From Candidatus Poribacteria bacterium (lineage in GTDB: Bacteria > Poribacteria > WGA-4E > WGA-3G): a stretch of DNA of 64,000 nucleotides. Numbering within the stretch: position 1 is the stretch's first letter; every line of letters begins with the position of its first letter. The DNA is taken from the NCBI GenBank assembly GCA_965214045.1, contig OZ243935.1, forward strand, positions 2,794,904 to 2,858,903, written 5' to 3'. This document shows positions 29,656 to 49,282 of this stretch, piece by piece. A program made the position numbers and the translations under genes. Below the pieces are notes generated by a model, which saw only the letters and a program-made list of their open reading frames with translations, was not told the origin of the DNA and searched no databases.

Positions 29656-30888
29656 TCAACTCATTTTCCGATCTTTCGGTGCAGTCACTTCAAAATCGAA
29701 ACCGCCAAGCACATCGCCGTTCACCTCCACCTCGAAACGGTGCCAACCGAGACACGCCTTTCCGTCCGCGTGTTGCTTGAGCGATGGCAACGGAAACAAA
29801 GATTTTTCGTAAGCGACGCGTTGTCTCGGCTTCAACTTCCTCTGACTGAGACGATAACGTTTCCGCGTGATGTGTCCTGTCGGACGCTTGTAAGCGACTG
29901 CGTAGTACGTAAGAATCGTTTGCTCAACATCGGAGTCGCTCTGTAGACTGAACGAAAAATCGAAAACTTCATTGATTGGAAGGAGCTGACGTTCAGGTTT
30001 CAGTTCGGTGAGTGAGAGGTCTGCCTTACCTAACTTCGGGACGGCTCCCATACCGAGGAGTTTAAAAGCGCGTGCATCCCCAATCTTCACCTGATATTTC
30101 AGAGCCTGCCGGAGAATTTTCTTCATCTCTGACCGTCCGTCCTGATCCCAGCGTTCCAGTGTGGTATATCCTACTTCTGGATAGTCCTTGACGATGTCGC
30201 GTATATCAGTAGCGACCTGTTCCCGAACACGCGCATCTGAATCGTCTTTGAGTATTTCCAGAAGTGCCAAGATCGGTTGCGGATCTTGGATAAACGGACG
30301 CAGCCATTTTTGGTGTATGCCGCGTGTGCAGAGCGATGCCGCCACGAACAGACGAAGGTTTGCGTTGTCGTCCGTGACCCATTCACCGAAACGTTCAAAG
30401 CACCGATTCGGATCTTCGATGATAAACGCACGGATATCACCGCCACGGGTACACCGATGTTTTGAGAGTTCGCGGAAAGCGTCCAACGATGCATCGAAAT
30501 CCGCGGGTCCGTGAAGACTGACAAAGTGCGCAATCGGTCGCAGGCTCGTCTCGACTTCGGGAGTCGGGTGTCGCATCGGTTCCGGTGGAGCCTCGGTCTC
30601 GACAAACACCATCAAGATAGCGAGTGCATCGGAATAGTCCTCTGGTAGATACTGACGCAGGACGCGACCGATAGCTTTCGTCACGTTATAGATCGTCTGA
30701 CCTTCCATCTCCGTCTGGACATCCGAAACGAAGGCAGGCACATCGAACTCAGGATAGATCCGCTGAATCTTTTTACCGATGACCAAACCGTCCTGTGTAA
30801 GATCGAATAATATGCGTTGATCTCTCATGTTCAATAGATTTTTTTCTTTGGATGTCGGTGATTTCCGTGAATGTGAGAATGATAACAT
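29656..30888 (-). CDS. HEAT/ARM-repeat protein, possibly DNA-alkylation-repair-like (AlkD-like). Start uncertain; the internal Met at ~30828 is plausible.
   Basis: 410 aa. Helical repeat composition. Weak resemblance to DNA alkylation repair enzyme family proteins. No catalytic motif recognised. Confidence 0.3.
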   Translation of the reverse strand: MLSFSHSRKSPTSKEKNLLNMRDQRILFDLTQDGLVIGKKIQRIYPEFDVPAFVSDVQTEMEGQTIYNVTKAIGRVLRQYLPEDYSDALAILMVFVETEAPPEPMRHPTPEVETSLRPIAHFVSLHGPADFDASLDAFRELSKHRCTRGGDIRAFIIEDPNRCFERFGEWVTDDNANLRLFVAASLCTRGIHQKWLRPFIQDPQPILALLEILKDDSDARVREQVATDIRDIVKDYPEVGYTTLERWDQDGRSEMKKILRQALKYQVKIGDARAFKLLGMGAVPKLGKADLSLTELKPERQLLPINEVFDFSFSLQSDSDVEQTILTYYAVAYKRPTGHITRKRYRLSQRKLKPRQRVAYEKSLFPLPSLKQHADGKACLGWHRFEVEVNGDVLGGFDFEVTAPKDRKMS

Positions 30889-31806: not shown

Positions 31807-32892
31807 TCAACTTAACGCTTGTTGTAGACTTGCTTCAACCCCTTCAGCTGGTAATAGGCGTATCATTTCATCTGCCATCGCTTTTCCACCTACTTCTCCT
31901 GTTCTTCCTTCGTATTCACCATCCTTGCGCCAATCTATTTCTGATGCAGCTTTTACTAAACGTCTGACGTTGTCCCAATTCATACCTATTTCCTCGTTGT
32001 AGCTCCGCGAGAAAATTTGTGCCCCGGTATACGACCAAGCTATCAGACCTGTGAGCTCAAGGAGTTTGTACTCAAAAGCGTTTCTGCGACTGCCCTTTAT
32101 TTCAGGATCATCGAGTTTTTCAATATCTGCCCATTCTTCATGAAGATGGTCAGCGATTATCGTCCAGAGCTCGGACATGTACTCGGTTTTCTGATCAACA
32201 TCTAAATCTTGAACTCCTCCGAGTCCAAATAGGCGCGTAACTTGCTTTGCCACACTATGGAGAGCAAATAGATGTGTACGCTGCATTGATGTCTTTGTAA
32301 TCCTTCCTTTAAAGGGACTGTCATCTCGTTCATTAAGTTCCCATCCGACTTGTGCTTCTGGTTTCCCTTCAAGGTAAGCTGTTAGAGGTTTGGGTACTCC
32401 TTTTTGGTTGTCGTTGACATTGATGAATTCTTTTGCTTCTTGTTCAGGAGTGAGATTTGGAAGCAGAATGAAGGAAACTTCGCGTACATCACTGTCAGAT
32501 TCATACAGCTCTACAAAGCCACCAAGACGATGTTGTCCATCAAGGATAGCGGCTTTTCCTCGAATGATAAGTTTTCCAGTATTTTGTCCTTCCCCATTTG
32601 GTTTGAATTGCCAGTTACCACGTCCGGAGAGCAGAACGGGTGGAACTATACTATCGGGGTATTCTGTGAGAAACTTCGCGACCTGTTTCATACGAGTTAG
32701 TGAACCAGGTCTCTGGTAACCCTCTTCCACGATTTCATTAAGACAAGTTTTACGACTGGATTCAATAACGGGGACAAATGTCACGTTCTTAACCTTATCA
32801 GATTTAATTGTTCCAAATAAGTACTTCTGATTGCCTTGAGTCTTCAGAATGACTCCTTTTATTTCCCCAATTGTATTCGTTTTATTAGTCAT
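31807..32892 (-). CDS. DGQHR-domain protein (DndB-like)
   Basis: 361 aa. Contains AILDGQHRLGG, the signature of the DndB/DGQHR family. Last gene of the minus-strand defense cluster. Confidence 0.7.
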   Translation of the reverse strand: MTNKTNTIGEIKGVILKTQGNQKYLFGTIKSDKVKNVTFVPVIESSRKTCLNEIVEEGYQRPGSLTRMKQVAKFLTEYPDSIVPPVLLSGRGNWQFKPNGEGQNTGKLIIRGKAAILDGQHRLGGFVELYESDSDVREVSFILLPNLTPEQEAKEFINVNDNQKGVPKPLTAYLEGKPEAQVGWELNERDDSPFKGRITKTSMQRTHLFALHSVAKQVTRLFGLGGVQDLDVDQKTEYMSELWTIIADHLHEEWADIEKLDDPEIKGSRRNAFEYKLLELTGLIAWSYTGAQIFSRSYNEEIGMNWDNVRRLVKAASEIDWRKDGEYEGRTGEVGGKAMADEMIRLLPAEGVEASLQQALS

Positions 32893-32936: not shown

Positions 32937-33227
32937 TCATTCTAACGTTTCAACCTCGTAAGGTGCCATCTGTGTCGCATCCGTTTTGCGGACGCGAAAT
33001 TGGATGTCCTTAAAGAGTCCATCATTATTTTTTCTCAAGCTTTCAAGGGATTCCCCTAAGGAACGTGCTGATATGTAGAAGATATACTCAAGGTCATTGC
33101 TGATTTTTTTTACGTGAAGAATAGGGGCATACCCCTTAAATGTCAAAACAACATCCGGTTCAGAGATAATTTCCAATTCTATCCATCCGGTCCCGACTTT
33201 TAAAGGCGGTGGTAATTCTTGAGGCAT
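32937..33227 (-). CDS. Hypothetical small protein (96 aa) within the defense cluster
   Basis: ORF only. 8-bp gap to the upstream gene. No recognisable motif. Confidence 0.3.
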   Translation of the reverse strand: MPQELPPPLKVGTGWIELEIISEPDVVLTFKGYAPILHVKKISNDLEYIFYISARSLGESLESLRKNNDGLFKDIQFRVRKTDATQMAPYEVETLE

Positions 33228-33235: not shown

Positions 33236-33751
33236 CTATAGATCATGCAGTGCTTCGGCAAGCTGATTTTGAATCGCTTGTTCCTCTGTAACAGGTTCGG
33301 ATTGCAGTAGGTCGTCAAGGGCATCAGAAAGGTTCCATATCGGGCTTTCGGAGCCTTCGTTTAGCATTTTCACGATGTGGGGGACACCTGCAGCTGCCAG
33401 ACCGTTGGCGATGTCCATCATGCGACGCGGCTTAAGGACAACCTCTAAGTTTCCTTCAACGGCTATCGCAATTAACATGATCGCTTGCGCCTGCCAGCCA
33501 TCCGTGTCAAAAATATTACCGCTAATGATGCTAACAGTGTCCTTTTTCTTTTTTGTTAAATGCATCGGTTTAAGATTCTGACGCGCTGCCAGCGAGAGTC
33601 CGGCAAACCAGAGATCCACCTTTCGTGGAAACGGAGTCTTAGCGGCTTTCGCACCTGCTCCCGTTTGGCAGTAATGATCGTAGTCATCCCGCTGTATAGT
33701 AGGTGATATGATTTGCATATTGCGAAAAGGATTATCGTAGTGTTGTGCCAT
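33236..33751 (-). CDS. Hypothetical protein (171 aa) within the defense cluster
   Basis: ORF tightly packed between the DndD-like and the 96-aa gene (9-bp and 8-bp gaps). No recognisable motif. Confidence 0.35.
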   Translation of the reverse strand: MAQHYDNPFRNMQIISPTIQRDDYDHYCQTGAGAKAAKTPFPRKVDLWFAGLSLAARQNLKPMHLTKKKKDTVSIISGNIFDTDGWQAQAIMLIAIAVEGNLEVVLKPRRMMDIANGLAAAGVPHIVKMLNEGSESPIWNLSDALDDLLQSEPVTEEQAIQNQLAEALHDL

Positions 33752-33760: not shown

Positions 33761-35884
33761 CTAAGATTCCGGCTGGATTTCTACCTCAACATCCGTGCGT
33801 CGCTTGCAGCGTTCACATTCTCCGAGGTCCTGGCACTCACACCGGAGTGCCTGCGGTTCATTTATATGTGGATCGTTTACTAATATAGTGGGGTAGTGTG
33901 CCGAATTTGTAATGGTGATGATACGTCCTGCTTCATCTGCTATAATATCTTCACAGTCTTTAATTTCGGAACGCGTCAGAAAGAGGATCAGTTGTGCACT
34001 TTCTTGAACAGCTGTTTTGAGAACGGAACGTTTGACAAACCCGTCCATCATTCCGAGGGGTGTATCAATCACGTTTGGTGCTATAACTTCACTGACTTTG
34101 GTGAGGGCGAGAATAAACGCTACCGTCAATGCTCTCCGAGAGGCACCATTTAAATCTTCCCTGGGGTTCAAAGCGCGTTTATTGGGTCCATAGACGAGAA
34201 TATTAAAATCTGGACTGATTTCTGCTTTCTGGATGATTGCTCCCTGTTCAGCGTCCGCGCCGATCATTTCCAGAAAAAATGTGTTCATCAACCGACTCAC
34301 TTCTTGCAATTCTTCGTTTGTGATTCGTTCGTATGAATTTTCAAGGATTTGCTCTATATCGCGCGTGGCATCTAATCTGGCTAATATTCCTTCCCCTCTT
34401 CTCTGTTTACTTATAAGGTTATTATGTGTTGCTGTTAAGGATCTCTGACTTTTTTTCAGGCGGTCAAGTTCTATTTCGTGCTCTATATGGGTACCGTTCA
34501 AAGAATCGCGTTGAGCAATATAGTCTTGCTTAGTGGCGCGAAGTTCTTGAATGTCGGTATCCCCTATACTCTCAAGTTGGACTTCCAATACGCTGAGTTC
34601 TTTTTCCAATTCTACGCGTCGAGCTTCAAGTTCATCGCGAAGGATTGCGTTTCTCTTGTATTCAGCGATCCAGTGTTGCTCATGGCTAATCTCTATCGGT
34701 TTCAGCTCCAATGAACCGAAATAAAGACCGGTCAGACGTGTTTGAAGTTCATCTGTTTCCCGACTCTCGCTAATGAGTCGTTCGATATGCGCTCTGCGCC
34801 GCTGTCCGTCTTCCGAGTGTTGATCCAGGGACTCTCCACAAATGCAGGCAGGACCTGTGAGTCGTTCTTCAAGCACAGGAATCGTTGTTTTCGGCAGTTT
34901 ACCCTGGTTGCTGAGTTCATCCAATTTCTCAAAACTTTTTTCCAAAACCGGGGCGAGCAGATCTCGGAATAGCGGCGGCTTTCTGAAGAATTGTGACTGC
35001 TCAGAAACCAGTTTTTCCTCTTGATTTTTGATTCTTTTTAGTTCTGCTTCTGATTTTTGCAGTCCGCGATTAAGTTCTTCTTGGTCCCCCTTAAGCAACG
35101 CTGCTTCAATGTCTTTATCAATTTCCGTTAGACTGTGATTGACTGCATCAAATTGAAGTTTCGCATCATCTCTTTCCTTTTCAAGACGTTCAACCTTTTC
35201 ATCTATCTCCCCCAATTCTGTAGCGATTTCGACAAGTTCTGTATCGGTTCCGATATTCTTTGAATCTCTATTGAGTCCAGCCATTGTCTTTTTCAAGTGA
35301 TCGAGAGCAGTCTCAATCACATCAAGGCCTAACAATGATTGAATGGCTTCCTGAACCTGTTTACGCTTATCTGTTCGTGAGTCTGCTTCAATGAAACTCA
35401 GTGCCCTGTCTCCGTCGGTGAAAAATACTTCACGCAAATTAGAGGGGACCAGGAGTCTGGCGATCTGTGCATCTGGTGTAGGTATTGGGGTGCTCCCAGT
35501 TTCTGTCAGTTCAAACAATTCTATTTTCGGGTTTTGTCTGAGCCCCTCGGTTGTCTCCTCTACGGAACGAATGAGGCAGTAGCGACTTGTCTTATTTCTA
35601 TTTGCCTCTGATGCAGGTGTTTCAAAATCGACTTGCACAGATATCGGAATTGCTTGACCATCAGGGACATCCCAATCAATTGGAAATAGTCGGTGTCCTC
35701 TACCTTTATCCGGTAGGGCATCATCGCCGTAGAGAGCCCATTGTAGCGCGTTTAAAATGGTCGTTTTTCCGCTCTCATTGGAGGCGCGAATGACCGTGAG
35801 TTTTCTGTCGTCACTGGTCGAAAAATCTAATCTTAGGTCTCGTAGCAGTCGAAAGTTTTGAAATCTTGCCCTGATGAGTTTCAT
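33761..35884 (-). CDS. DndD-like SMC/ABC-type ATPase
   Basis: 707 aa. N-terminus MKLIRARFQNFRLLRDLRLDF...LTVIRASNESGKTTILNALQWALYGD matches the DndD/AAA_23 Walker A region. Long coiled-coil middle. C-terminal signature/D-loop region. Confidence 0.65.
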   Translation of the reverse strand: MKLIRARFQNFRLLRDLRLDFSTSDDRKLTVIRASNESGKTTILNALQWALYGDDALPDKGRGHRLFPIDWDVPDGQAIPISVQVDFETPASEANRNKTSRYCLIRSVEETTEGLRQNPKIELFELTETGSTPIPTPDAQIARLLVPSNLREVFFTDGDRALSFIEADSRTDKRKQVQEAIQSLLGLDVIETALDHLKKTMAGLNRDSKNIGTDTELVEIATELGEIDEKVERLEKERDDAKLQFDAVNHSLTEIDKDIEAALLKGDQEELNRGLQKSEAELKRIKNQEEKLVSEQSQFFRKPPLFRDLLAPVLEKSFEKLDELSNQGKLPKTTIPVLEERLTGPACICGESLDQHSEDGQRRRAHIERLISESRETDELQTRLTGLYFGSLELKPIEISHEQHWIAEYKRNAILRDELEARRVELEKELSVLEVQLESIGDTDIQELRATKQDYIAQRDSLNGTHIEHEIELDRLKKSQRSLTATHNNLISKQRRGEGILARLDATRDIEQILENSYERITNEELQEVSRLMNTFFLEMIGADAEQGAIIQKAEISPDFNILVYGPNKRALNPREDLNGASRRALTVAFILALTKVSEVIAPNVIDTPLGMMDGFVKRSVLKTAVQESAQLILFLTRSEIKDCEDIIADEAGRIITITNSAHYPTILVNDPHINEPQALRCECQDLGECERCKRRTDVEVEIQPES

Positions 35885-36126
35885 TGCGTAACCTCTGTCG
35901 TTGGGTTATCTGTATCACGTTTCCTCGCGAGAAAATCGCCAGCCTTATGGCATGCTTGGTTTACCTGTTTTTGAATGGTTGTTCTTTGTGCTTGATGTTC
36001 TCTCTCGGCACTGAGGATTTCAACGATTGCCTCAAGCACTTTTTTCCTGTAGCCGTCGCATCTTTCCTCAATAGATTCACATTCATTGAGAATCATCTTT
36101 ACCATTTTTTCCTTGTTATATGACAT
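35881..36126 (-). CDS. Hypothetical small protein (81 aa), translationally coupled (ATGA overlap) to the DndD-like ATPase
   Basis: ORF only. 4-bp overlap with the downstream gene start. Confidence 0.3.
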   Translation of the reverse strand: MSYNKEKMVKMILNECESIEERCDGYRKKVLEAIVEILSAEREHQAQRTTIQKQVNQACHKAGDFLARKRDTDNPTTEVTQ

Positions 36127-36137: not shown

Positions 36138-38282
36138 TTATACGTAAAGGGTTCTAACCAGTTGGTCGATGTGGCTTAAGGGTCCATCAGGTCTACCAAA
36201 GTTCTTCGCAAGGTAAGCGAACGCTTGAATCCGTTTGAGTTCGGACGCTATTAAGGCATGTGCGCGAGTGTCCAGATTATCCAAATCCGGGGGTAGCGCG
36301 ATAAAATCGTGGATTTCACTGTGCGTTTTGCTGGTCTTACTACACGTGCGGAGCAGCCTCCCGCGCCGCTGCGTCCACTGCCGTTCCACTGTGGTGCTCG
36401 CCAAAATAAAAGCCTTCTCAATTTCTGGGATATTCACGCCTTCATCAAGTACACGCTTTGCGGTTAAGACACGCAGCGTTCCTTCTTGAAAGGACTGAAT
36501 AATCTGTGCGGTTTTTTTACGGTCACCTGTTTCTTTGTAGGTCAGTTGATGAAACAGCACCCCGTGTCTGTTCAGTAAGGCGTTAACAGCTTTCAGCTGC
36601 TGCGGTGCCTTGTCAGAGGCGTAAATCAAGGTATGCTGGAGTTTGTTGAAATCTTCGCGTTGCGTTAAGACATCTTCTAACACGGCGACCTTATTTTCTG
36701 CGTTCTCCAAAAGTGCCCGACGGTCTCGGAGCAATTTCATAAGGTACACATTGTCCGCATCCTCGTTCTCCTGCATCCACGCATTTTTCCTGATCTCTTC
36801 CGTGAGAGCATACCACTCCTCCATTTCGTCCTCTGTGAGTTCTACCGGATGCACGTAGTATTCGTATTCAACGAGGCATCTGCCGATGGCTTCCTCAAGT
36901 GTGAACTCAAAAACAATAGGTCCGAAAAACGCAAATAACTGATCCGTGCCTTCTTCATCGTATTGACGGATCGGAGTTGCGGATAAACCTAATCGATAAT
37001 CGAAAAATTCAGGCGGATCGGTGATGAATCCTTCACTTCCGAGATTGTGGACTTCATCAGCAATGAGTAAGGTTTTACAATCGAATTTCTTCAGTTCCTC
37101 TTTAAAATTAGGACTGCAAAGGGTCTTATGAGAAACAATGGCGATCTCAATGTCGCTACTACCGAATCGAAGCCTCCGCTCAAGTTTCTTAAGTTCAGCT
37201 GCACGTCCCCTTGCTCCATTCACCTCAGTCAGATTAACTGGCTTCAGCCCAAAGGATGAAATTTCATCACACCACTGTTGGATGAGGGGTATATAGGGCG
37301 CGGCAACGACGATAAGCAGTGGTTTCTCCGTCTCATAGAGTCTATGTGCACAAATCATGGCAGCGATGGTTTTTCCTGAACCTGTTGCCATTTCTAATAT
37401 CCCTTGATGACCGCCTTCACACCACGCTTTCACAGCTCTCCCTTGATGTTCAAAGTCACCCTCCTCAAATTCCAGATATGATGGTATTGTAAATGAAGGA
37501 CGGGGCACCTTAAAGTCGTAAGTTGTAGAAGCTTCCTGTATAGCAGCAGCTTCCGCTTTGTAGAGTGTGTGAAAGTCGTCCTCTGTCGGTGGGATATCGG
37601 AGTTATAGGTTTTCAACAGATTTTCCTTAATTGCTTGTGGTATCGGAATCACAGTGCACGTCTCATCGTAATTCGTCCAAAATTGCTTGAACTGATCGCA
37701 CAATTTTTCTGTAATATAGTATTGGTTACCATCTTCCCACGATTTGGAGATGGACATCTGCTCAATATTTTTCTGAATACCGGCGTAGGTCATATTGCTG
37801 GAGCCGTGTGCTGCGATAACATCGTCACCCTCGTGAAAGAGCCAGACCTTGGGGTGGAAAAGCGCATCTTTCATCAAAGCGATTTTGATTTCCACGCGTC
37901 TGTGACGCAGCATCCATGAGAGGCATTTCAGCGTATGCTGCGCAATAGCGTTTTCGGTAACAACAAAATCTTCTAAAGCTGTGTTGACGATATCCTCTAC
38001 GGAGGCTACGCCTTCTGCTATTGCCGCTTTGTCTTCAGGGCGGAGCAGCGGACTGATAATCAGACGCAAACTTTCGTCTGCACAGTTTATGAACGTTGCT
38101 AATCCTGGCGCAAGGGACACCAGAATTTCACTCGAAAAGAAACCTATCATGCAATCAACATGCGTAGCAGACTGAAAGCACGGAATTAGGACATCTTCTG
38201 TCGCGGGATCCTTTGGCAACATGTAAAGGGGTCGAATATCGGGTATCGCCCGAAGTGTCATCCCATGATTTTTTCTTTTCAT
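36138..38282 (-). CDS. Phospholipase-D-family nuclease domain fused to an SF2 (DEAD/DEAH) helicase
   Basis: 714 aa. N-terminal HxK...GSxN (HPKVWLFHEG...GSSNMTYAG). Helicase motifs I MATGSGKTIAAM, II IADEVHN, VI QRRGRLLR. Confidence 0.65.
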   Translation of the reverse strand: MKRKNHGMTLRAIPDIRPLYMLPKDPATEDVLIPCFQSATHVDCMIGFFSSEILVSLAPGLATFINCADESLRLIISPLLRPEDKAAIAEGVASVEDIVNTALEDFVVTENAIAQHTLKCLSWMLRHRRVEIKIALMKDALFHPKVWLFHEGDDVIAAHGSSNMTYAGIQKNIEQMSISKSWEDGNQYYITEKLCDQFKQFWTNYDETCTVIPIPQAIKENLLKTYNSDIPPTEDDFHTLYKAEAAAIQEASTTYDFKVPRPSFTIPSYLEFEEGDFEHQGRAVKAWCEGGHQGILEMATGSGKTIAAMICAHRLYETEKPLLIVVAAPYIPLIQQWCDEISSFGLKPVNLTEVNGARGRAAELKKLERRLRFGSSDIEIAIVSHKTLCSPNFKEELKKFDCKTLLIADEVHNLGSEGFITDPPEFFDYRLGLSATPIRQYDEEGTDQLFAFFGPIVFEFTLEEAIGRCLVEYEYYVHPVELTEDEMEEWYALTEEIRKNAWMQENEDADNVYLMKLLRDRRALLENAENKVAVLEDVLTQREDFNKLQHTLIYASDKAPQQLKAVNALLNRHGVLFHQLTYKETGDRKKTAQIIQSFQEGTLRVLTAKRVLDEGVNIPEIEKAFILASTTVERQWTQRRGRLLRTCSKTSKTHSEIHDFIALPPDLDNLDTRAHALIASELKRIQAFAYLAKNFGRPDGPLSHIDQLVRTLYV

Positions 38283-38318: not shown

Positions 38319-39572
38319 TCAGTGTTGGTTTGCCCCTTTGCGAGCGTTACATTGTCTGCAAAGTGTTTGGGCGTTTTCAAGAGTTGTTTTCCCACCATCC
38401 GCGTGAGGAGTTATGTGATCAGCTTCCATTTTATCAAATTCGATTTTTTGGTTGCATCCTTGACAAGTCTCATTGTCTCTACGCCAAATCACAATTCGTT
38501 CGTCACGAGAGAAAGCACGTTGTGAGTCTTTTCGCACTAAGTGCTGGATGTCTCGGAGGAATCGTCTTTTATATACTTCATGTCGCTTTTCGAGGTTAGG
38601 TTTTGTCCCACCTGAGCGGATGAAAGCTTCAATGTAATCATACATATCTCTATCCCAAAGACTTTTGCCTGCAGCAAGTAATTCACTGGGATCTGATATA
38701 ACTGACCGCCTCTCTTCTTCAAAGGCAACGTAAAAATCAGCGAAGTCAATCTCGTGATCTCGGATAACATAGGACTTATTCATTTCCGAAATTAGTAAAT
38801 ATAAGTCTACAAAGCCCCACTTAACGTCCATGTCGGGAGGACGATTTTCCAAAACTTTTTCCATATATCCTAAGTGCCGTCGAACTTTTTTGGCAACAGA
38901 TCCATTGTGGTCAAAATTCTGATTATTCCTGTACATTTTGGTGAGACTCGGTGCCTTGACATCCGTTGGTCCTTGTGCTATCTCCAGACGCGTTACTACA
39001 GCGGCCAGGTCATGCCACCCAAATCTCTTTTCTGAAAGGAAGGTTAATGGAAAAACACGATGGTTATCTCCTAAGTTTGCTATGAAATCTCGCATTTTAC
39101 CCGGCATAGCGTTTCGTTTTTCTACAGGATTCAAAGACAGTCCTTCTTGCAATCTTAGAAAAAGATCTCGTATATCTAAATCTGATGCATCCTCAACCTC
39201 AACTAAATTAAGCTCAAATATTGCAAATTGATCCTGAATATCGCTTGGCAATTCTGAGAATTTCTTACCTGATAAGTCCCCAAAATTAGGTATGTCTCTT
39301 GATGCTTCACCCAGGACATACTGATCATCATGGAAATCCCAAATAGCATTCAGCCTTTGCTGTCCATCAACAACCTCATGCTCATACTCAGAATCAGACG
39401 ATACTCGGAGGTAAAATTTGGGCATATCATATTGTCGAAGTATTGAGTCAATAAGCAATTGCTTTTTTGCCTCATTCCAAACTGGAGTCCGCTGATACTG
39501 AGGTCTTGGATTTATCTTTGGCTTCCTTCTGGCAATTGTTTCAATTGTCCAATGTCTTGGTCGAGTTTTCAT
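38319..39572 (-). CDS. DUF262 (ParB-like, DGQQR motif) plus C-terminal HNH nuclease; GmrSD / SspE-like
   Basis: 417 aa. N-terminal VVDGQQRLNAI. C-terminal CQGCNQKIEFDKMEADHITPHADGGKTTLENAQTLCRQCNARKG. Confidence 0.65.
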   Translation of the reverse strand: MKTRPRHWTIETIARRKPKINPRPQYQRTPVWNEAKKQLLIDSILRQYDMPKFYLRVSSDSEYEHEVVDGQQRLNAIWDFHDDQYVLGEASRDIPNFGDLSGKKFSELPSDIQDQFAIFELNLVEVEDASDLDIRDLFLRLQEGLSLNPVEKRNAMPGKMRDFIANLGDNHRVFPLTFLSEKRFGWHDLAAVVTRLEIAQGPTDVKAPSLTKMYRNNQNFDHNGSVAKKVRRHLGYMEKVLENRPPDMDVKWGFVDLYLLISEMNKSYVIRDHEIDFADFYVAFEEERRSVISDPSELLAAGKSLWDRDMYDYIEAFIRSGGTKPNLEKRHEVYKRRFLRDIQHLVRKDSQRAFSRDERIVIWRRDNETCQGCNQKIEFDKMEADHITPHADGGKTTLENAQTLCRQCNARKGANQH

Positions 39573-39621: not shown

Positions 39622-40473
39622 TCACTTATGGCACGCCAAACACGGTTCCTCATCATCCTCATCGTCAAGCACATCCGTGAAGATTTGCACCAAACGTTGA
39701 TTCGGTCTCTCGGATCGCTTGGCGGCAAGGGCTGCTGTAGCCTCCGCCTTAATCTGCGCGACACGCTCCGGTCGCGACAACTCCGCTAAACTCTCGCCTT
39801 GACACCACGTGAATTGTTGATCTGTCCTGGCATTTTCATTAGGCTCTTCTTCATATTTCCTCGCGAGCGCAAAGAGATCAGGATGCTTTTCTAATAAGCC
39901 GACCCACTCGGCTTTACGCTGGAAGAAACAGAAATAACACCCGGAACGCGTCCGCCACTCGTAATACGTCGGAAGCCCGAGCCCGCTCTCCTCCAGAATC
40001 CGATAGACATCCTCTTTCGTGATGCCGTCCTCTTTGAACGGATACTTCGGTTCAATGTTCCGTAAATCCGTGGTTCTCAGCGGTTTGTAACCCGTCCTGT
40101 CTTCGTCTGCACGGATGGCGATGTAGTGATACGCTTTGTCTGCGCCGATGTATTCCTCGAAAGGTATGATTTTCAGGTTAGCTGTGCACCAGCGGACTTG
40201 GGAGGACGGCAAGAGCCCCCCGTATAAGGCTAACCAGTGGTCAAAACTGCGGTCTTCATTCGGATCCGGATTCATATTGAGACGGACAATCGGTTTGCCG
40301 AGATGCGCTTCTAACCGATCCAGGTATTCATACGTCTCTGGAAGTTCCTTACCTGTATCCGAGAAAAAGTATTCCATCTCTATTTCCGGTTTTTCTCTAC
40401 GCATGTAAACCGCGAGGGCGGAACTGTCTTTGCCGCCAGAGAGTCCGAGGACGTGTCGGATATTTTCTGCCAT
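39622..40473 (-). CDS. PAPS-reductase-family ATP pyrophosphatase (SspD/DndC-like)
   Basis: 283 aa. PP-loop LSGGKDSSALAVYM. C-terminal CxxC (CLACHK). Confidence 0.65.
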   Translation of the reverse strand: MAENIRHVLGLSGGKDSSALAVYMRREKPEIEMEYFFSDTGKELPETYEYLDRLEAHLGKPIVRLNMNPDPNEDRSFDHWLALYGGLLPSSQVRWCTANLKIIPFEEYIGADKAYHYIAIRADEDRTGYKPLRTTDLRNIEPKYPFKEDGITKEDVYRILEESGLGLPTYYEWRTRSGCYFCFFQRKAEWVGLLEKHPDLFALARKYEEEPNENARTDQQFTWCQGESLAELSRPERVAQIKAEATAALAAKRSERPNQRLVQIFTDVLDDEDDEEPCLACHK

Positions 40474-40546: not shown

Positions 40547-43500
40547 TTAAATTGCCCTTTCGTTCTCAAATGCCTGCATCAGTTTTTGTGAGATACGCGC
40601 CAAAACAGCGAGTCGGAATCCGTGATTTTTCTCTGCGTCCAGTTCATCAAAAGCCGTCTCAATCGCGCGTTCCAATCCAACTGCCTGTGCCTCGGCAGTT
40701 GCGGGTAAAGTGACGACCTGTTCTTGTTCGGGTTGGTTTCGGGTTGTAATACCGATCCGAATCGCTTCACCTGTCGAGGTTTCAGTATGACCGGGTTGAT
40801 CGTAAGACACGGCTTCAAGGTGTCGGAACTTCCGTGCAAGATGTGAAAGATTATTTTGGAATTGGGCTTTATCTGTGTCTAACCATTTATCCGGCGGTTT
40901 TTTCGCGAGATAACTCGCGAGAGCGACAAGCCAGCTTTTGAAATCGTGTCCACCGCTATGGATGTTGATTAAGAATCCCTTGAGGTCGGTTTCGATCGCG
41001 ACCGGTAACAGGACTTCAGCTCTACAGACGAGGGCATCGCGGAGTGTCTCTGATGTGAGATCAAACGCTGTCGCTAACATCTCCTCAAGAGAATCCAATA
41101 GACGGTCGTATGCCTGATTTAACTCGGATAACGCCCCTTGCAGCGTCCCGAAAAATTGTGAAACGCCGTGGGGATCCGTTGCTGTCTCTGCCTTAAAAGC
41201 CGGGAACCCGAGTGCTGCTGGCAGCTGTTTAAAGAGGAGTTCATCAGGTTCGCGTGCATTTCCGAGGGTGGCACGGAGATTTTGAGCAGCTTCACTGAGT
41301 TCTTGCGTGGTCCGCGTGTACTGCGGGAGTTCGCTGATCGTCTGGACCAACGGCACGACAACCGTCAAGAGATCCGGTTTTTCAGAGGCTTCAGCGGTAT
41401 CGAGCGCGCCTAAAAATTGGGGGAACAGGTCGGCACGGATATCCGTCATCCGAAAACGTTTCAGTTCAAAGCGTTCTGGTCTTTTAATTAACCTTTCAAA
41501 GACGGGGATCGTCCAGTTCGGGATGAAGGATCCGTTTTCATAGAGGGCGATCTCTGTTTTGTAGTGAAGTATCACCGCACATAACAGGATAGGCAGCGGT
41601 CCCTCGCGGGCACCAATAGGCGGTTTCATCAGGTCTGTGTAGAGGTTAGGCAACGGCTGCCGTCTGTCTTCACACGTTTCAAGGAACTGCTCAATCGCTT
41701 CCCATATCGGTCGGACATCGTTTGTCGCGTCAGGTGAGGGCGGATGAAACCGCCACATATCCGATCCTGGAATTTGACGATGGATGCCTGTTTCTAAGAG
41801 AAGCGACCGGTAGATACTCATTTCAGCGGGGTAACCCTCTATACCGAGATTATCTTCGGCTTCCTTTTCAAGCATCGCTTGGATGAGTTTCCGCCTCGCG
41901 GTTGTAACAGCACCGGAGACTTTCCGTCTGTTAATGAGTTCGTGCCGAATCACAGGCGTTTTGGGGTAGACAGCATCGCAGATTTCTGAGAGATATCCAT
42001 TTCTCTCACGCAGCGACTTGATGGGGATCTCTTTTCCCTTATGATACCATTGACACGGATTGTCAGTACCGCCTTTACCTTTAAAGAGTGACGTTACTTC
42101 TTCAGATACACTGCGTTCCGCTTCTGAGGAACGGATTGCGAGTTCACGTCTGGCGGTTTTATCGCCTTCAAGTTCTTCCGTATTCTGCGAGACCCAGTGC
42201 AAACACGCAAGTTCTCTGACGGCACCGTATAGCGTATCTGTGGATGTTGGCATCGCAAGGAGTACCTCCTCGCGGCTTTCGAGGTTTTCACGTTTCGCTT
42301 TTTCGAGGATTTGCTTACCTTCGTTTTCATCCCCCGGCAATGCATAGAGCACAAGTCCATCTGCCGAATCAAGAGGTGCTGCGAGGGTATCCTCAAAGTT
42401 GTCAAGGTCTGTATAACGCACTGTGAAATAGCGGAGGGTGCCTTTCTCAAAAAGATGTCTGCGTGCGATGAGAGGGCGCGGCGGTATGAAATCTGACAAA
42501 TAGGTCATCAATCTTTCGTTTCGATTGAGCTGCCCTTCTGCATGCTGGAGCCGCTCTTCGATATTAATATCGCTGCCTTCCCAGAGCGCATAGGTCTTAT
42601 TATGCCGCCGATGGATCACAATTGAACGGGCTTGGATGTCTTCAAGTGTCCTGCTAAATTCCTCCTTAAATCCTGCCGTCTGATCGTCTAAAGCATAACG
42701 GAGGACCCCTTCTGAAGCGTTTAGGTTTCTACTGACTTCTCCGACAATCCCAAGCAGACCGATGGTTTTGATGAGTTTCACGAGCAGCGGCGATGGATCC
42801 GCCAATCGGTTGATAGCCATCTCAACTTCGAGCCACCGGTCCCCTTCGCGCGAGGTATAGAGTCGGTTTCCCAGACTGAGCTGGAGATAATCGTAGAGGT
42901 CGGGGATTGAAAACATCGGCAGCGTGTTCCCGTCATAAGACCGGTTTTCCAGAAAATCGCGGAGTCCATGCGGTTCAACTGCATTCAGGAAAGCAAAGAG
43001 AGAGCGTTCATTTTGTGCGAATTTTCGGAAAACGGGTCCGATGAGGAGTGCTACAGTTGGGTGAAGCGGTAGACAATTTCGGAGCAACTCGCGAAAGGCA
43101 GCCGCATCGCCGAATGGATTGAGATTGAGATCAGAGGCAGGCAGCAGCTGCAGGTCTCCGATACCTTCCGTGTCCTTGTTTTGGATAGCGGAGCCAATGA
43201 GTTGAAGGATTTGATCTGCCGGTTCCACGAAGGCGAGATCTTCAAACCGTCCTTGAACCTTTGCCCATTCCTCGCGTTGTGAGGCTGCTGCTCTGTTTGC
43301 ATAGTGTTCAAAAGCTTGATGCAAGATAGTCATGAAAAAGAGGGGTGTCTCTGCACTCCGTGTCGCAAATTCAGCGAGGGTTTGTAGCACAAACACATCG
43401 CCTTGCGCAGGATGTTGTGCGGCGTGTTCAAGGAACTTGCCAAGTTCGTCAACCACGAGTAACAAACCGCCACCGCCTTTTTTCTTGATTGTCAGTGTTG

Positions 43501-44056
43501 CAGATTCAAAAAGTGCTGTGACTTCAGTTGCTGACAAGGGATTGCCGTTTTTCTCTGTTTTCAAGAGTGCTTGGATGTCTTTTCGCAGGGAGTGTCTTGC
43601 GGTGATATGAAAGGTTTGAAGTCCGTGTTCTAATCCTTGCAAGAGGGCGTGTGTAATGGATGCGCGTTCGCCAGAGATAAGCACTGGACAAAAACCAACT
43701 GCCGTTTTTTCTCTGTTCCCGTTTAGGCTCAAAAAACGTTCGTATAATGGCGGATCGCTGTGTTTGAGTAATTTCAGAGCGTGTTTTGTTGTGGCGGTGT
43801 CAGTGTTTCCGAAGAGTTTTGCGGCGAAGAGTGCGAACGCAGATTTCCCCGCTCCGTAAGGACCCGTGAGGGACCACGCTTTTGATGTCGCCTCGTTCTC
43901 TCGTGCTGTGATAAGCCGAGCAAGGGTCTCCCGTGCTTTGACAGTCACAACGTAGCCATCTAAGGCGTTTTCGGTATAGAAATCGCGTGCCAGATGAACA
44001 GAACGTTGAAAGCGTTTGGTGATGTGAAAAATATCTGACAAGGGTGTGTTAGCCAT
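40547..44056 (-). CDS. Large P-loop ATPase (SspC/BrxC-like, DUF499-type)
   Basis: 1169 aa. Walker A LTGPYGAGKSAFALF (~aa 66). Walker B LLLVVDELGKF (~aa 210). 8-bp overlap with the upstream DUF4007 gene. Confidence 0.55.
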   Translation of the reverse strand: MANTPLSDIFHITKRFQRSVHLARDFYTENALDGYVVTVKARETLARLITARENEATSKAWSLTGPYGAGKSAFALFAAKLFGNTDTATTKHALKLLKHSDPPLYERFLSLNGNREKTAVGFCPVLISGERASITHALLQGLEHGLQTFHITARHSLRKDIQALLKTEKNGNPLSATEVTALFESATLTIKKKGGGGLLLVVDELGKFLEHAAQHPAQGDVFVLQTLAEFATRSAETPLFFMTILHQAFEHYANRAAASQREEWAKVQGRFEDLAFVEPADQILQLIGSAIQNKDTEGIGDLQLLPASDLNLNPFGDAAAFRELLRNCLPLHPTVALLIGPVFRKFAQNERSLFAFLNAVEPHGLRDFLENRSYDGNTLPMFSIPDLYDYLQLSLGNRLYTSREGDRWLEVEMAINRLADPSPLLVKLIKTIGLLGIVGEVSRNLNASEGVLRYALDDQTAGFKEEFSRTLEDIQARSIVIHRRHNKTYALWEGSDINIEERLQHAEGQLNRNERLMTYLSDFIPPRPLIARRHLFEKGTLRYFTVRYTDLDNFEDTLAAPLDSADGLVLYALPGDENEGKQILEKAKRENLESREEVLLAMPTSTDTLYGAVRELACLHWVSQNTEELEGDKTARRELAIRSSEAERSVSEEVTSLFKGKGGTDNPCQWYHKGKEIPIKSLRERNGYLSEICDAVYPKTPVIRHELINRRKVSGAVTTARRKLIQAMLEKEAEDNLGIEGYPAEMSIYRSLLLETGIHRQIPGSDMWRFHPPSPDATNDVRPIWEAIEQFLETCEDRRQPLPNLYTDLMKPPIGAREGPLPILLCAVILHYKTEIALYENGSFIPNWTIPVFERLIKRPERFELKRFRMTDIRADLFPQFLGALDTAEASEKPDLLTVVVPLVQTISELPQYTRTTQELSEAAQNLRATLGNAREPDELLFKQLPAALGFPAFKAETATDPHGVSQFFGTLQGALSELNQAYDRLLDSLEEMLATAFDLTSETLRDALVCRAEVLLPVAIETDLKGFLINIHSGGHDFKSWLVALASYLAKKPPDKWLDTDKAQFQNNLSHLARKFRHLEAVSYDQPGHTETSTGEAIRIGITTRNQPEQEQVVTLPATAEAQAVGLERAIETAFDELDAEKNHGFRLAVLARISQKLMQAFENERAI

Positions 44057-45032
44057 AACACCTCTCTAAAAGTTCCATTTCATTAAGATCTCTCTGTCGA
44101 TACAGTTGTTTCAGACCCGTCGTTTCATCGTATTCAAACGCGCCATCTGTGAGTTCTGCGAGGTCCTCAAGATAGACCGTCAGGGTATCCTCATCTAATC
44201 TGAAAACGCGTCCAGGACTCGATGGGGCATACATCAGTTCTGAGAACGCCAGTGAGTTTCTCTGGGAGAATTCGTTCGCCGAAAACGTGTCTTGTGCCCA
44301 AGGGTATGGATGTTTCCAAAATGTGTTCAATGCCCAGGCGACGACTGCCGTGGAAAGTGTTTCTTTTTCGCCACGCTGGAATTCATAACCATCTCCACCC
44401 ATTAATTCCGAGATCAGGTTCAACTCGACGAGCGGGCAGTCGAAGGTATCTTCAACGACAGCAGTGGTATCGCGTGATTGACAGTAAGTTCGGAGAAAAC
44501 AATTGACATCGCGCCGGAGTGTATTGTCGGAGACCAACCGCATCCCGGGTCTCTGTTGCTGTGCCCACCTGTAGACCTTTTGTGTAAATATATCCGGCAT
44601 AAACGGATTATCTGTTAAAATATTGAATGCCCAATACCAGGCTGTGGCTTGGGTGCCGCCTGTTGCGATCTGGTAGTGGATGATCCATAGCGTCGCCGGG
44701 TCTTCAAGGTATGGGTCGAATCCTTCTTCAGCAAAAATGTCTTTACCGAGTTGAGTCGGTGCAAATTGCCCGCGTCGGGACTGGGCGGTATCCTCTTTGA
44801 TGAGTCGAGTTGCCCGACACCAATGCCGAATGGAGTCCACCATGTTTTTTCCGACCCCTAAAGTAACGGAAGCATCCGCAGCTGAAAAAATGGTCGGATT
44901 TTCTATCACGGCATCAACGCCTTTCTTCAACCATGTATAGCGAAAAGGGAAGGTCTGGTGTCCTGAAAAAGAGGGGGAGATCGGTGGGATGTTACGCATA
45001 ACCTGCCCCCCTGGAGTATCTGGGCGGGTCAT
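44049..45032 (-). CDS. DUF4007-family protein (SspB-like)
   Basis: 327 aa. N-terminus SFSGHQTFPFRYTWLKKG matches the DUF4007 signature as I recall it. First gene of the operon. Confidence 0.5.
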   Translation of the reverse strand: MTRPDTPGGQVMRNIPPISPSFSGHQTFPFRYTWLKKGVDAVIENPTIFSAADASVTLGVGKNMVDSIRHWCRATRLIKEDTAQSRRGQFAPTQLGKDIFAEEGFDPYLEDPATLWIIHYQIATGGTQATAWYWAFNILTDNPFMPDIFTQKVYRWAQQQRPGMRLVSDNTLRRDVNCFLRTYCQSRDTTAVVEDTFDCPLVELNLISELMGGDGYEFQRGEKETLSTAVVAWALNTFWKHPYPWAQDTFSANEFSQRNSLAFSELMYAPSSPGRVFRLDEDTLTVYLEDLAELTDGAFEYDETTGLKQLYRQRDLNEMELLERCYG

Positions 45033-45169: not shown

Positions 45170-45491
45170 TAGATTGGCTTGTTAAATCAGGTGCCCAGAC
45201 GGCTTCCGGGGGTACGAATAACCTCTTGAGGCAAGGATTCTTATCAAGCATACGTGCTATTCTGATTATAGTGTTCATATCTCGATTTTTCATTCGCTTT
45301 ATTGATTAAGTACAGAGTGATGGGAATATTCAGATTTTTGTTCCTGATGTCAAGTTTACTTAAAATTTTAGCACGGATTCGTATTAAATGTCAAATTTTT
45401 TTGCTTTACTGCATCTATCATTAGTTTTTAGAATTTTATATGGATCGGATGTTCTAAAAGTTTAAGGGATATCGCAGGAAAAATTGGAGGG

Positions 45492-49279: not shown

Positions 49280-49282
49280 ATA

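What the first reader, a model, noticed from the sequence alone, without database searches (positions are those of the whole stretch)
36138..38282. PLD-nuclease / SF2-helicase fusion embedded between the two PT-related modules
A single 714-aa protein carries the HxK...GSxN phospholipase-D nuclease signature at its N-terminus and complete DEAD/DEAH helicase motifs I, II and VI. This nuclease-translocase architecture is typical of restriction-like effectors (DISARM DrmC, Dpd helicases and similar).

Its position suggests it is the effector for one of the flanking sensor modules.
Basis: seen in the sequence. Interest (0 to 1): 0.55.

Follow-up and report, generated by a model that had tools for sequence, protein, structure and literature searches.

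The report
PbeA nuclease-helicase of Ssp-linked Pbe defence
The gene is real, but it is an ordinary member of a described family: PbeA, the nuclease-motor subunit of the four-gene PbeABCD anti-virus system. The only unusual point is that here it sits behind an SspBCD DNA-sulfur-marking module rather than the Dnd module with which it was characterised.

Summary
The 714-aa ORF (36138-38282, minus strand) exists and carries one HKD (PLD) nuclease motif plus a complete SF2 motor. H143, K145, G160, S161, N163 and helicase motifs I, II, III and VI are invariant or nearly so across more than 100 relatives at 30-57% identity.

It is not an orphan effector lying between two modules. It is PbeA (PADLOC E = 6e-198), the first gene of a contiguous pbeABCD cassette:
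- PbeB: 81 aa.
- PbeC: ABC ATPase with an invariant CxC Zn-hook.

The cassette follows sspBCD. The 417-aa DUF262-HNH gene between sspD and pbeA is a local insertion into a variable slot; one relative carries a true SspE there.

The sspBCD-pbeABCD arrangement recurs in 30 of 37 related genome loci from several phyla, on plasmids of cultured Sphingomonadaceae and Rhizobium, and in 14 of 43 informative metagenome loci (8 were Dnd-linked). The papers I could search pair Pbe only with Dnd or with methylases.

Most likely role: an ATP-driven translocating nuclease, dimeric through its PLD domain, directed by PbeC-PbeD against DNA that lacks the Ssp phosphorothioate mark. The protein is a known kind. 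The system pairing is a modest and possibly undescribed variant.

The parts
36138..38282 (-). pbeA: 714-aa HKD(PLD) nuclease fused to an XPB-like SF2 translocase. The probable true start is Met8, at nt 38261.
   Evidence: ORF. PADLOC PbeA PDLC02707, E = 6.4e-198, residues 20-694. Pfam ResIII, DEAD, Helicase_C and PLDc_2. AF2 pLDDT 92.4. Foldseek top hit SauUSI 7clg. Start inferred from orthologue lengths and the L014 junction.
37593..38258 (-). PLD-fold nuclease domain of PbeA (about residues 9-230) with a single HKD motif.
   Evidence: PLDc_2 at 123-202. phmmer match of residues 88-187 to SauUSI 7clg_A. Beta/alpha elements E19-E213 of the model.
37794..37856 (-). Catalytic signature H143-x-K145 ... 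G160-S161-x-N163.
   Evidence: H143, K145, G160 and N163 are invariant and S161 is 98% conserved in 101-127 diverse homologues. It is the only such motif in the protein.
36318..37457 (-). SF2 motor of PbeA (residues 276-655): Q motif Q280, motif I 300-305, motif II DEvH 409-412, motif III SAT 434-436, motif VI QRRGRlLR 638-645.
   Evidence: Closest solved sequences are XPBII 6p4f (E = 8e-27) and Rad25/XPB 2fwr.
35881..36126 (-). pbeB: 81-aa small helical protein. It lies 11 nt after pbeA and overlaps pbeC by 4 nt.
   Evidence: Present directly after pbeA in every related genome locus that has downstream flank. Conserved IEERCxGY and TNIQ motifs. No HMM hit.
33761..35884 (-). [quoted passage not shown]
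   Evidence: PADLOC PbeC 5.5e-54 against DndD 2.3e-33. AAA_23. C347 and C349 invariant in 35 orthologues.
33236..33751 (-). pbeD: 171-aa protein with the DndE fold.
32937..33227 (-). Conserved 96-aa ORF directly after pbeD, function unknown (possible accessory gene).
   Evidence: tblastn at 56-96% identity in the same position in 13 related loci. No PADLOC hit.
31807..32892 (-). DGQHR-domain (DndB/ParB-like) accessory gene.
   Evidence: NCBIfam TIGR03187 DGQHR 4.2e-33. Pfam DndB 1.7e-16. A close homologue lies downstream of pbeD in 9 related genome loci. A different DGQHR protein follows pbeD in the Dnd-linked plasmid locus L041.
38319..39572 (-). 417-aa DUF262 (DGQQR motif) + HNH gene inserted in the variable slot between sspD and pbeA. 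Candidate second effector with an SspE/DndI-like architecture.
   Evidence: Pfam GmrSD_N 1.7e-16 and HNH 4.7e-13. PADLOC NsnA 2.2e-28, no SspE model hit. Absent from this junction in the 37 related genome loci. The slot holds a true SspE in L009 and other cargo elsewhere.
39622..40473 (-). sspD (PAPS-reductase-type sulfurtransferase).
   Evidence: PADLOC SspD 2.8e-113. Pfam PAPS_reduct.
40547..44056 (-). sspC (large ATPase).
   Evidence: PADLOC SspC E = 0, 1081 bits.
44049..45032 (-). sspB (DUF4007 DNA-binding subunit).
   Evidence: Pfam DUF4007 7e-86. PADLOC SspB 4.5e-96.
45365..45394 (-). Best sigma-70-like promoter match upstream of sspB (TTGACA-18-TAAAAT with TG). A possible single promoter for sspBCD through pbeABCD.
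   Evidence: Consensus scan only: 11 of 12 matches. The scan reported no convincing minus-strand terminator inside the genes downstream of it. Weak evidence.

Best explanation
The ORF is pbeA, the enzymatic subunit of a PbeABCD module (also described as the 'CxC ABC-ATPase/DndE-centred system'). Here that module is joined to an SspBCD phosphorothioate (PT) writer in one co-oriented, tightly spaced gene string.

Proposed mechanism:
1. SspBCD, with a cysteine desulfurase encoded elsewhere, marks host DNA with PT.
2. The PbeC dimer (ABC ATPase with coiled coil and Zn-hook) and the DndE-fold protein PbeD scan or loop DNA and report whether the mark is present.
3. On unmarked (invader) DNA they license PbeA.
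4. PbeA uses its XPB-like SF2 motor to translocate on duplex DNA. Two copies bring their single HKD half-sites together to form one PLD active site, which nicks or cuts DNA and stops phage replication.
5. PbeB is a small regulatory or adaptor subunit.

Shown here: the identity of all four Pbe proteins, conservation of the nuclease and motor residues, the fold matches, and the conserved linkage to SspBCD.

Inferred: PT dependence (taken from the archaeal Dnd-linked prototype), dimerisation, DNA cleavage, and the order of events.
For: Identity:
- PADLOC PbeA 6.4e-198 over the full length, PbeC 5.5e-54, SspB/C/D 4.5e-96 / 0 / 2.8e-113.
- Catalytic H, K, G, S, N residues and helicase motifs I, II, III and VI are invariant in 101-127 homologues at 30-57% identity.
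- The AF2 model (pLDDT 92.4) matches SauUSI, a PLD-nuclease plus SF2 ATP-dependent restriction enzyme, over 725 columns at E = 3e-22, and then XPB helicases.
- The PbeC CxC motif is invariant.

Linkage:
- pbeA-B-C-D is contiguous in every related genome locus with enough flank, and 30 of 37 loci have SspB, SspC or SspD within 10 kb.
- The same pairing occurs in an overlapping eight-gene operon on the plasmid of a cultured Sphingomonadaceae and, with a permuted gene order, on a Rhizobium plasmid.
- 14 of 43 informative metagenome loci are Ssp-linked, against 8 Dnd-linked. One distant example was verified with PADLOC.
- Partner type is consistent within PbeA clades.

Literature:
- dndCDEA-pbeABCD from a haloarchaeon gives about 10^4-fold protection. 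All four pbe genes are needed, and protection requires the PT mark itself (PMC6459918).
- PbeA was reinterpreted as an HKD endoDNase plus SF2 helicase, PbeC as a CxC ABC ATPase and PbeD as a DndE cognate, with DNA cleavage predicted (PMC10853773).
Against: - No experiment exists for any Ssp-linked Pbe system.
[quoted passage not shown] Both results sit badly with a simple 'cut unmodified DNA' model.
- No cysteine desulfurase (SspA) lies in the window, so PT writing here depends on an unseen gene.
- PLDc_2 scores just below Pfam's gathering threshold (25.8 against 27), and TIGR04095 is below NCBI's cut-off (378 against 600).
- Dimerisation and complex formation were not modelled.
- The metagenome sample was ranked by similarity to an Ssp-linked query, so the 14:8 ratio is biased.
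Confidence: 0.6

Rival explanations
1. Abortive-infection effector. PbeA is kept inactive by the small protein PbeB. A phage factor removes or modifies PbeB, and PbeA then cuts the host's own DNA, killing the cell before the phage matures. The PT mark is secondary.
For: Proposed as an alternative in PMC10853773 (read). About 58% of PbeAC pairs in the original survey lacked dndCD within 10 kb (PMC6459918). 20 of 43 informative metagenome loci here showed no Ssp or Dnd partner, and solitary cassettes occur on plasmids. This shows that Pbe can exist without a linked PT writer.
Against: In the tested system defence was lost when PT was abolished, and PT-modified virus escaped, which indicates self/non-self marking (PMC6459918). 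In this clade pbeABCD is almost always fused to sspBCD, sometimes with overlapping stop and start codons. PbeB here is fairly well conserved (34-83% identity) rather than rapidly evolving.
Confidence: 0.2
2. Non-nucleolytic blocker. PbeA acts only as a translocase or remodeller that stalls phage replication, and the HKD site is not used to cut DNA (or it acts on another phosphodiester substrate).
For: No viral DNA cleavage or degradation was seen by Southern blot up to 6 h, and pbeBCD without pbeA kept low-level resistance (PMC6459918).
Against: H143, K145, G160 and N163 are invariant in more than 100 homologues down to 30% identity, which implies selection on catalysis. The closest structural relative, SauUSI, is a PLD-type restriction endonuclease. 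Nicking or rare cuts would be invisible on the published blot.
Confidence: 0.15
3. One reading: a stand-alone effector serving one of two flanking 'sensor' modules (DGQHR/DndD, or the SspE-like DUF262-HNH gene), analogous to DISARM DrmC or the Dpd helicases.
For: Gene order in the window places it between the DUF262-HNH gene and the DndD-like gene. A DGQHR gene lies downstream here and in 9 relatives.
Against: The DUF262-HNH gene is a window-specific insertion into a slot that holds unrelated cargo elsewhere. A DGQHR gene is missing from most relatives. There are no DrmC or Dpd helicase HMM hits. The invariant partners are PbeB, PbeC and PbeD.
Confidence: 0.05

Closest known systems
PbeA of DndCDEA-PbeABCD (Haloterrigena/Natrinema jeotgali A29; Xiong et al. 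2019, PMC6459918), equivalent to the 'HKD endoDNase-SF2 helicase' of the CxC ABC-ATPase/DndE systems (PMC10853773)
   Same: Same three-domain architecture (PLD + ResIII/DEAD + Helicase_C). Full-length PADLOC PbeA match. Same four-gene cassette with a small PbeB, a CxC ABC ATPase (PbeC) and a DndE-fold PbeD.
   Different: The partner modification module is SspBCD (single-strand PT writer, with no DndD or DndE) rather than DndCDEA. PbeA identity to Dnd- or methylase-linked examples is only about 31%. This cassette has extra genes: an inserted DUF262-HNH gene, a 96-aa ORF and a DGQHR gene. There are no experimental data for this pairing.
SauUSI (PDB 7CLG), ATP-dependent Type IV restriction endonuclease
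   Same: N-terminal PLD nuclease followed by an SF2 motor. It is the best whole-length structural match (E = 3e-22), and the PLD regions match at sequence level.
   Different: 15-16% identity. The SauUSI chain on record is 953 aa and extends beyond PbeA. From my own knowledge, that extension is a C-terminal modified-cytosine recognition domain, SauUSI works alone, and it attacks modified DNA. PbeA depends on PbeBCD, and in the prototype it spares PT-modified DNA.
Archaeal XPB(-Bax1) helicase-nuclease machine (PDB 6P4F, 5TNU, 2FWR)
   Same: The motor core is the closest solved sequence relative (E = 8e-27, residues 404-649 including the inter-lobe insertion). In both cases a helicase is coupled to a nuclease.
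   Different: In XPB-Bax1 the nuclease is a separate protein of a different fold and the role is DNA repair. PbeA fuses a PLD nuclease in cis and sits in a defence operon.
TIGR04095 'DNA phosphorothioation system restriction enzyme' (NCBIfam)
   Same: Strong match to the helicase half (E = 8e-113, residues 277-699). Relatives on plasmids carry this name.
   Different: The score of 378 bits is below the curated 600-bit cut-off. This Ssp-linked clade is therefore annotated only as 'DEAD/DEAH box helicase family protein' or 'hypothetical protein'.
SspABCD-SspE and SspABCD-SspFGH PT defence systems (PMC8092258, PMC9646914)
   Same: Same modification module, with one or more restriction modules attached to it. 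Stacking of two effectors on one SspBCD has a precedent (SspE + SspFGH give additive protection).
   Different: The restriction module here is PbeABCD, which is unrelated to SspE and SspFGH. It brings its own ABC-ATPase/DndE pair.

Membership tests
PbeA / PbeABCD (CxC ABC-ATPase-DndE system) | PLD(HKD) + ResIII/DEAD + Helicase_C in one polypeptide, with a full-length match to PbeA models | tested here: met
   Pfam. PADLOC PbeA E = 6.4e-198, residues 20-694 of 714.
PbeA / PbeABCD (CxC ABC-ATPase-DndE system) | Small protein PbeB encoded directly after pbeA | tested here: met
   An 81-aa ORF lies 11 nt downstream, and orthologues are present in every related locus with flank. Membership rests on position, size and synteny, because no PbeB HMM matched.
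PbeA / PbeABCD (CxC ABC-ATPase-DndE system) | [quoted passage not shown] | tested here: met
   PADLOC PbeC 5.5e-54. C347-x-C349 at mid-protein is invariant in 35 orthologues.
PbeA / PbeABCD (CxC ABC-ATPase-DndE system) | PbeD: small DndE-like protein after pbeC | tested here: met
PbeA / PbeABCD (CxC ABC-ATPase-DndE system) | Adjacent dndCDEA modification genes, as in the prototype | tested here: not met
   The adjacent modification genes are sspB, sspC and sspD. No DndC, DndD or DndE was found in the 37 related genome loci. The literature already accepts Pbe cassettes without dnd (PMC6459918, PMC10853773), so this does not exclude membership. It defines a variant.
PbeA / PbeABCD (CxC ABC-ATPase-DndE system) | PT-dependent protection against viruses, requiring all four genes | not testable with these tools
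   Needs plaque assays and LC-MS detection of PT.
NCBIfam TIGR04095 dnd_restrict_1 | Score at or above the curated cut-off (600 bits) | tested here: not met
   377.8 bits, E = 8e-113, covering residues 277-699 only.
PLD-superfamily nucleases (Nuc / BfiI / SauUSI type) | HxK...G(S/T)xN catalytic motif, conserved | tested here: met
   H143, K145, G160 and N163 are invariant and S161 is 98% conserved.
PLD-superfamily nucleases (Nuc / BfiI / SauUSI type) | Pfam PLDc_2 at or above the gathering score | tested here: not met
   25.8 bits against 27. Close homologues carry a precomputed PF13091 hit.
PLD-superfamily nucleases (Nuc / BfiI / SauUSI type) | PLD fold | tested here: met
   The whole-length Foldseek top hit is SauUSI 7clg, and there is a sequence match to the SauUSI PLD region.
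PLD-superfamily nucleases (Nuc / BfiI / SauUSI type) | Two HKD halves forming one active site (here by homodimerisation) | not testable with these tools
   There is only one HKD per chain. No multimer prediction or model coordinates were available.
DISARM DrmC | Match to DrmC models | tested here: not met
   No DrmC family among the 23 PADLOC families at E <= 0.001.
Dpd (7-deazaguanine) system helicases | Match to Dpd helicase models, with dpd genes nearby | tested here: not met
   No Dpd hit for this protein. Only the DGQHR neighbour weakly hits DpdB (4.7e-09).
Type I / III restriction R subunits | Full-length match to HsdR or Res, with a PD-(D/E)xK nuclease | tested here: not met
   Only partial, weak motor-domain hits (REase_I 1.6e-06, hsdR 4.6e-07). 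The nuclease domain is PLD-type.

The most novel reading that the evidence does not exclude
SspBCD-PbeABCD is a distinct and widespread PT-based defence configuration that has not been characterised. In it, a CxC-ABC/DndE scanning pair that has no counterpart in the Ssp writer reads the Ssp mark (or its absence) and directs the PbeA nuclease-motor. In the sampled public data it is at least as common as the Dnd-linked form, which is the only one tested. It would account for part of the roughly 84% of sspBCD clusters reported to have no known restriction partner.
Probability: 0.45. Interest if true: 0.5.

Novelty: new member of a known kind. Interest (0 to 1): 0.35.

Why it matters
- For annotation: the gene should be called pbeA, and its neighbours pbeB, pbeC and pbeD, rather than 'DEAD/DEAH helicase', 'hypothetical' or 'DndD'.
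- For biology: the Pbe mechanism is still called obscure in a 2025 review (PMC12707154), and 83.9% of sspBCD clusters have no assigned restriction partner (PMC8092258).
- The recurrent sspBCD-pbeABCD operon also occurs in cultured Sphingomonadaceae and Rhizobium strains. It offers a tractable bacterial system for testing whether PbeA cuts DNA and how a DndE/ABC pair reads a mark it did not write.
- The variable slot between sspD and pbeA shows how further effectors (SspE, DUF262-HNH, GHKL ATPases) are stacked onto one modification module.

Tried and rejected
- Sequence-only identification of PbeD failed: Pfam, NCBIfam, PADLOC, phmmer against PDB, and a profile search against PDB gave nothing meaningful. 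Only the structure comparison worked.
I re-did it with proteins from a dedicated homologue search.
- The look-up of encoding contigs with the 714-aa translation found nothing, probably because the gene is called from Met8. A 100% identical PbeD lies on a 4.82-Mb contig.
- The Krishnan et al. 2020 NAR paper, which first described the CxC systems, is not held. I therefore cannot exclude that it mentions the Ssp linkage.
- Protein comparison failed because of a coordinate error. PADLOC scans of the pasted sequences replaced it.
- The first conservation script was spoiled by an empty sequence and was repeated.
- Composition gave no sign that the cassette or the inserted gene is compositionally foreign.
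- I found no transposon-like scars at the DUF262-HNH junctions.
- Rejected readings: DrmC-like or Dpd-like (no HMM support), Type I/III R subunit (wrong nuclease fold, partial hits only), and a SauUSI-type stand-alone Type IV enzyme. PbeA is shorter than SauUSI (714 against 953 aa), so it has no room for an extra recognition domain, and it is always found with PbeBCD.
Full report
**Observation.** The ORF at 36138-38282 is real. It lies on the minus strand and encodes 714 aa.
- Pfam finds ResIII (278-439), DEAD and Helicase_C (531-646) above threshold. PLDc_2 at 123-202 scores 25.8 bits, just below its 27-bit gathering score.
- The PLD signature is H143-P-K145 ... G160-S-S-N163. It is the only HxK and the only G[ST]xN in the protein.
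- In an alignment of 127 family representatives at 32-57% identity, and a second of 101 sequences, H143, K145, G160 and N163 are invariant and S161 is 98% conserved. Motif I (TGxGKT, 300-305), motif II (DExH, 409-412), motif III (SAT, 434-436) and motif VI (QxxGRxxR, 638-645) are also conserved. The Asp position of the textbook HKD motif (residue 150) is variable.
- Orthologues are mostly 707-708 aa and start at the equivalent of Met8. The closest relative has a good ribosome-binding site before that ATG. The real start is therefore probably nt 38261.

**Identity.**
- PADLOC matches the protein end to end to PbeA (PDLC02707, E = 6.4e-198).
- NCBIfam's TIGR04095 'DNA phosphorothioation system restriction enzyme' matches residues 277-699 at E = 8e-113. 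The score of 378 bits is below the 600-bit curated cut-off. This explains why relatives in GenBank are labelled only 'DEAD/DEAH box helicase family protein' or 'hypothetical'.
- The family is large. 1,620 cluster representatives (50% identity clusters) match at E <= 1e-30, and most of the 150 listed are full length at about 700 aa.
- An AlphaFold2 model built on the 101-sequence alignment is confident (mean pLDDT 92.4, pTM 0.72). Its best match among solved structures, over 725 alignment columns, is SauUSI (7clg, E = 3e-22), an ATP-dependent restriction endonuclease made of a PLD nuclease and an SF2 motor. XPB helicases follow.
- At sequence level the motor is closest to archaeal XPBII (E = 8e-27), and residues 88-187 match the SauUSI PLD region.

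**The gene is part of a four-gene cassette, not an isolated effector.**
- *pbeB* (35881-36126, 81 aa) lies 11 nt after pbeA and overlaps the next gene by 4 nt.
- *pbeC* (33761-35884, 707 aa) scores better against PbeC models (5.5e-54) than against DndD models (2.3e-33). It has a C347-I-C349 motif at its midpoint that is invariant in 35 orthologues. This is the 'CxC' Zn-hook that PMC10853773 uses to separate these ATPases from DndD.
- This reproduces the published composition. Xiong et al. 2019 defined pbeABCD as a PLD-ResIII-helicase protein, a 66-aa protein, an AAA_23 ATPase and a 152-aa protein (PMC6459918). PMC10853773 re-annotated them as an HKD endoDNase-SF2 helicase, a small protein, a CxC ABC ATPase and a DndE cognate.

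**Context.** Upstream on the same strand lie sspB (DUF4007), sspC and sspD (PADLOC 4.5e-96, 0 and 2.8e-113).
- A scan of one genome per species returned 37 loci with PbeA at 56-91% identity. Most are Candidatus Poribacteria. Others are Latescibacterota, Dehalococcoidia and other Chloroflexota, Rhodospirillaceae, Oleispirillum and Acidobacteriota.
- Mapping the window's proteins onto them shows pbeA-B-C-D contiguous wherever flank exists, and SspB, SspC or SspD within 10 kb in 30 of 37 loci. The usual order is sspB-C-D immediately followed by pbeA.
- The window is therefore probably from a Poribacteria genome. A 100% identical PbeD sits on a 4.82-Mb contig.
- The best promoter-like site lies upstream of sspB, and the scan reported no convincing terminator inside the gene string. 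This is weak evidence.
- No cysteine desulfurase (SspA) is present in the window. The literature accepts that IscS encoded elsewhere can supply this function (PMC8092258).

**The 417-aa gene between sspD and pbeA (38319-39572) is a local insertion.**
- It has a DUF262 domain with the DGQQR motif plus an HNH domain. It hits NsnA, but no SspE model.
- In most relatives sspD abuts pbeA.
- Where there is a gap, the cargo differs: a bona fide 774-aa SspE in L009 (PADLOC 7.7e-284); MzaB-like GHKL ATPases with a 162-aa partner in L007 and L034; another large protein in L015; and a small protein plus a DGQHR protein in L029.
- The junction between the modification and Pbe modules is thus a slot for additional effectors. 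The window's occupant has the same domain logic as the PT-sensing nickases SspE and DndI (PMC9646914, PMC11662687).

**How general is the Ssp-Pbe pairing?**
- On plasmids, a cultured Sphingomonadaceae carries cysteine desulfurase-sspB-C-D-pbeA-B-C-D as an overlapping eight-gene operon (47.6% PbeA identity).
- Rhizobium indigoferae has pbeB-C-D-A convergent with sspA-B-C-D at only 31% PbeA identity.
- Pontibrevibacter has the classical dndBCDE ... pbeABCD arrangement plus a DGQHR gene. Halobaculum pairs pbeABCD with methyltransferases. Pseudanabaena and Lactiplantibacillus cassettes have no annotated PT or methylase partner within the stretch shown.
- A metagenome scan with the diverse alignment gave 80 loci at 28-62% identity. 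Of the 43 with at least 6 kb outside the cassette, 14 are Ssp-linked, 8 are Dnd-linked, 1 has Halobaculum-like methylases, and 20 show none of these. No locus had both Ssp and Dnd.
- A distant human-gut example was confirmed with PADLOC: SspB 3e-63, SspC 8e-126, SspA 1e-37, PbeA 6e-254, PbeC 2e-124, with a BrxP/SspD-like PAPS reductase.
- A rough neighbour-joining tree puts the window in a large all-Ssp clade. At least three further Ssp-linked clades are interleaved with Dnd- and methylase-linked ones. The sample is ranked by similarity to an Ssp-linked query and the tree has no support values, so these are indications, not frequencies.

**Literature position.**
- The papers I could search describe Pbe only with Dnd, with methylases, or solitary (PMC6459918, PMC10853773, PMC12707154).
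- The Ssp papers list SspE and SspFGH as partners and report that 83.9% of 2,678 sspBCD clusters have neither (PMC8092258).
- Only two papers contain both 'sspBCD' and 'pbe'. I did not open them. Their titles are a methods review and an optical-mapping study.
- Krishnan et al. 2020 is not held, so prior mention of the pairing cannot be excluded.

**Mechanism.** What is shown:
- a conserved, apparently catalytically competent HKD site;
- a complete XPB-like motor;
- obligatory co-occurrence with a Zn-hook ABC ATPase, a DndE-fold protein and a small protein;
- tight linkage to a PT writer.

From the prototype experiments (PMC6459918): all four genes are needed, the PT mark itself (not the Dnd proteins) is required, PT-modified virus escapes, and viral DNA replication is blocked.

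I infer that PbeC-PbeD scan DNA for the mark and license PbeA on unmarked DNA. PbeA would then translocate and, as a PLD-mediated dimer like SauUSI, nick or cut.

Against a simple restriction model, the prototype showed no visible degradation of viral DNA and no toxicity when PT was lost. The abortive-infection model (PbeB as a releasable inhibitor, PMC10853773) and a non-nucleolytic blocking model therefore remain open. A 2025 review still calls the restriction event obscure (PMC12707154).

**Verdict.** Its interpretation is partly right (a restriction-like nuclease-translocase in a PT context). It is wrong about the gene's status (a known PbeA within pbeABCD), its comparators (DrmC, Dpd) and its refutation criterion (single-HKD nucleases dimerise). 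The protein is a new member of a known family. The system-level pairing with SspBCD is a modest, possibly undescribed variant that recurs widely.

Noticed in passing
window 45492-46385 (-): A 297-aa protein matches NCBIfam NF045808 'phosphorothioated DNA-binding restriction endonuclease' (323 bits, cut-off 180; SBD-HNH type). It sits directly upstream of the PT writer sspBCD, and homologues occupy the same position in about 13 related loci. A PT-dependent nuclease next to a PT writer looks paradoxical. It presumably targets a foreign PT sequence context rather than the host's own.
   Followed up: partly
window 38319-39572 (-): A 417-aa DUF262 (DGQQR motif) + HNH protein is inserted between sspD and pbeA. 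It has an SspE/DndI-like architecture but hits no SspE HMM, and it is about half the size of SspE. The slot holds a true SspE, GHKL ATPases or a DGQHR protein in other genomes.
   Followed up: partly
window 32937-33227 (-): An unannotated 96-aa ORF immediately after pbeD is conserved at 56-96% identity in the same position in 13 related loci. It has no PADLOC match. It may be a fifth gene of the cassette in this clade.
   Followed up: partly
window 31807-32892 (-): A DGQHR-domain (DndB/ParB-like) gene lies downstream of the Pbe cassette. A close homologue is there in 9 related Ssp-linked loci, and a different DGQHR protein ('DNA phosphorothioation-associated DGQHR protein 1') follows pbeD in a Dnd-linked plasmid locus. 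It appears to be a recurrent accessory of Pbe systems whatever the writer.
   Followed up: partly
window 29656-30888 (-): A 410-aa ORF with no Pfam, NCBIfam or PADLOC match is conserved (81-86% identity) downstream of the DGQHR gene in three Poribacteria loci.
   Followed up: no
window 33761-33850 (-), C-terminus of PbeC: PbeC ends with a conserved Cys cluster (C682-x-C684 ... C690-x-x-C693) in addition to the mid-protein CxC hook. This may be a second zinc-binding element.
   Followed up: no
window 46755-48353 (+) and 52479-54125 (-): Two proteins of 532 and 548 aa each carry the same AAA_35/AAA_16/AAA_22 ATPase domains. They flank the island on the sspB side. Their function is unknown.
   Followed up: no
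window 49193-50377 (+): An HhH-GPD + NUDIX_4 protein (by my reading a MutY-type glycosylase) is labelled 'Type II nicking endonuclease' by a PADLOC model (2.3e-32). This is a likely false defence call.
   Followed up: no
window 16290-17432 (-): A YhgA-like (Transposase_31) gene lies about 12 kb from the low-coordinate end of the defence island.
   Followed up: no
window 18541-25526 (-): Two very large proteins (1,238 and 1,007 aa) carry Dockerin, FlgD-Ig, LDL-receptor-repeat and Lamin-tail domains, suggesting secreted or surface proteins.
   Followed up: no
L019 15022-16912; L029 7505-9407: In Latescibacterota relatives the cassette is accompanied by a DUF262-only (NsnA-like) protein plus a SIR2/ThsA-like protein after pbeD (L019), or by a small protein plus a DGQHR protein in the sspD-pbeA slot (L029).
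   Followed up: no
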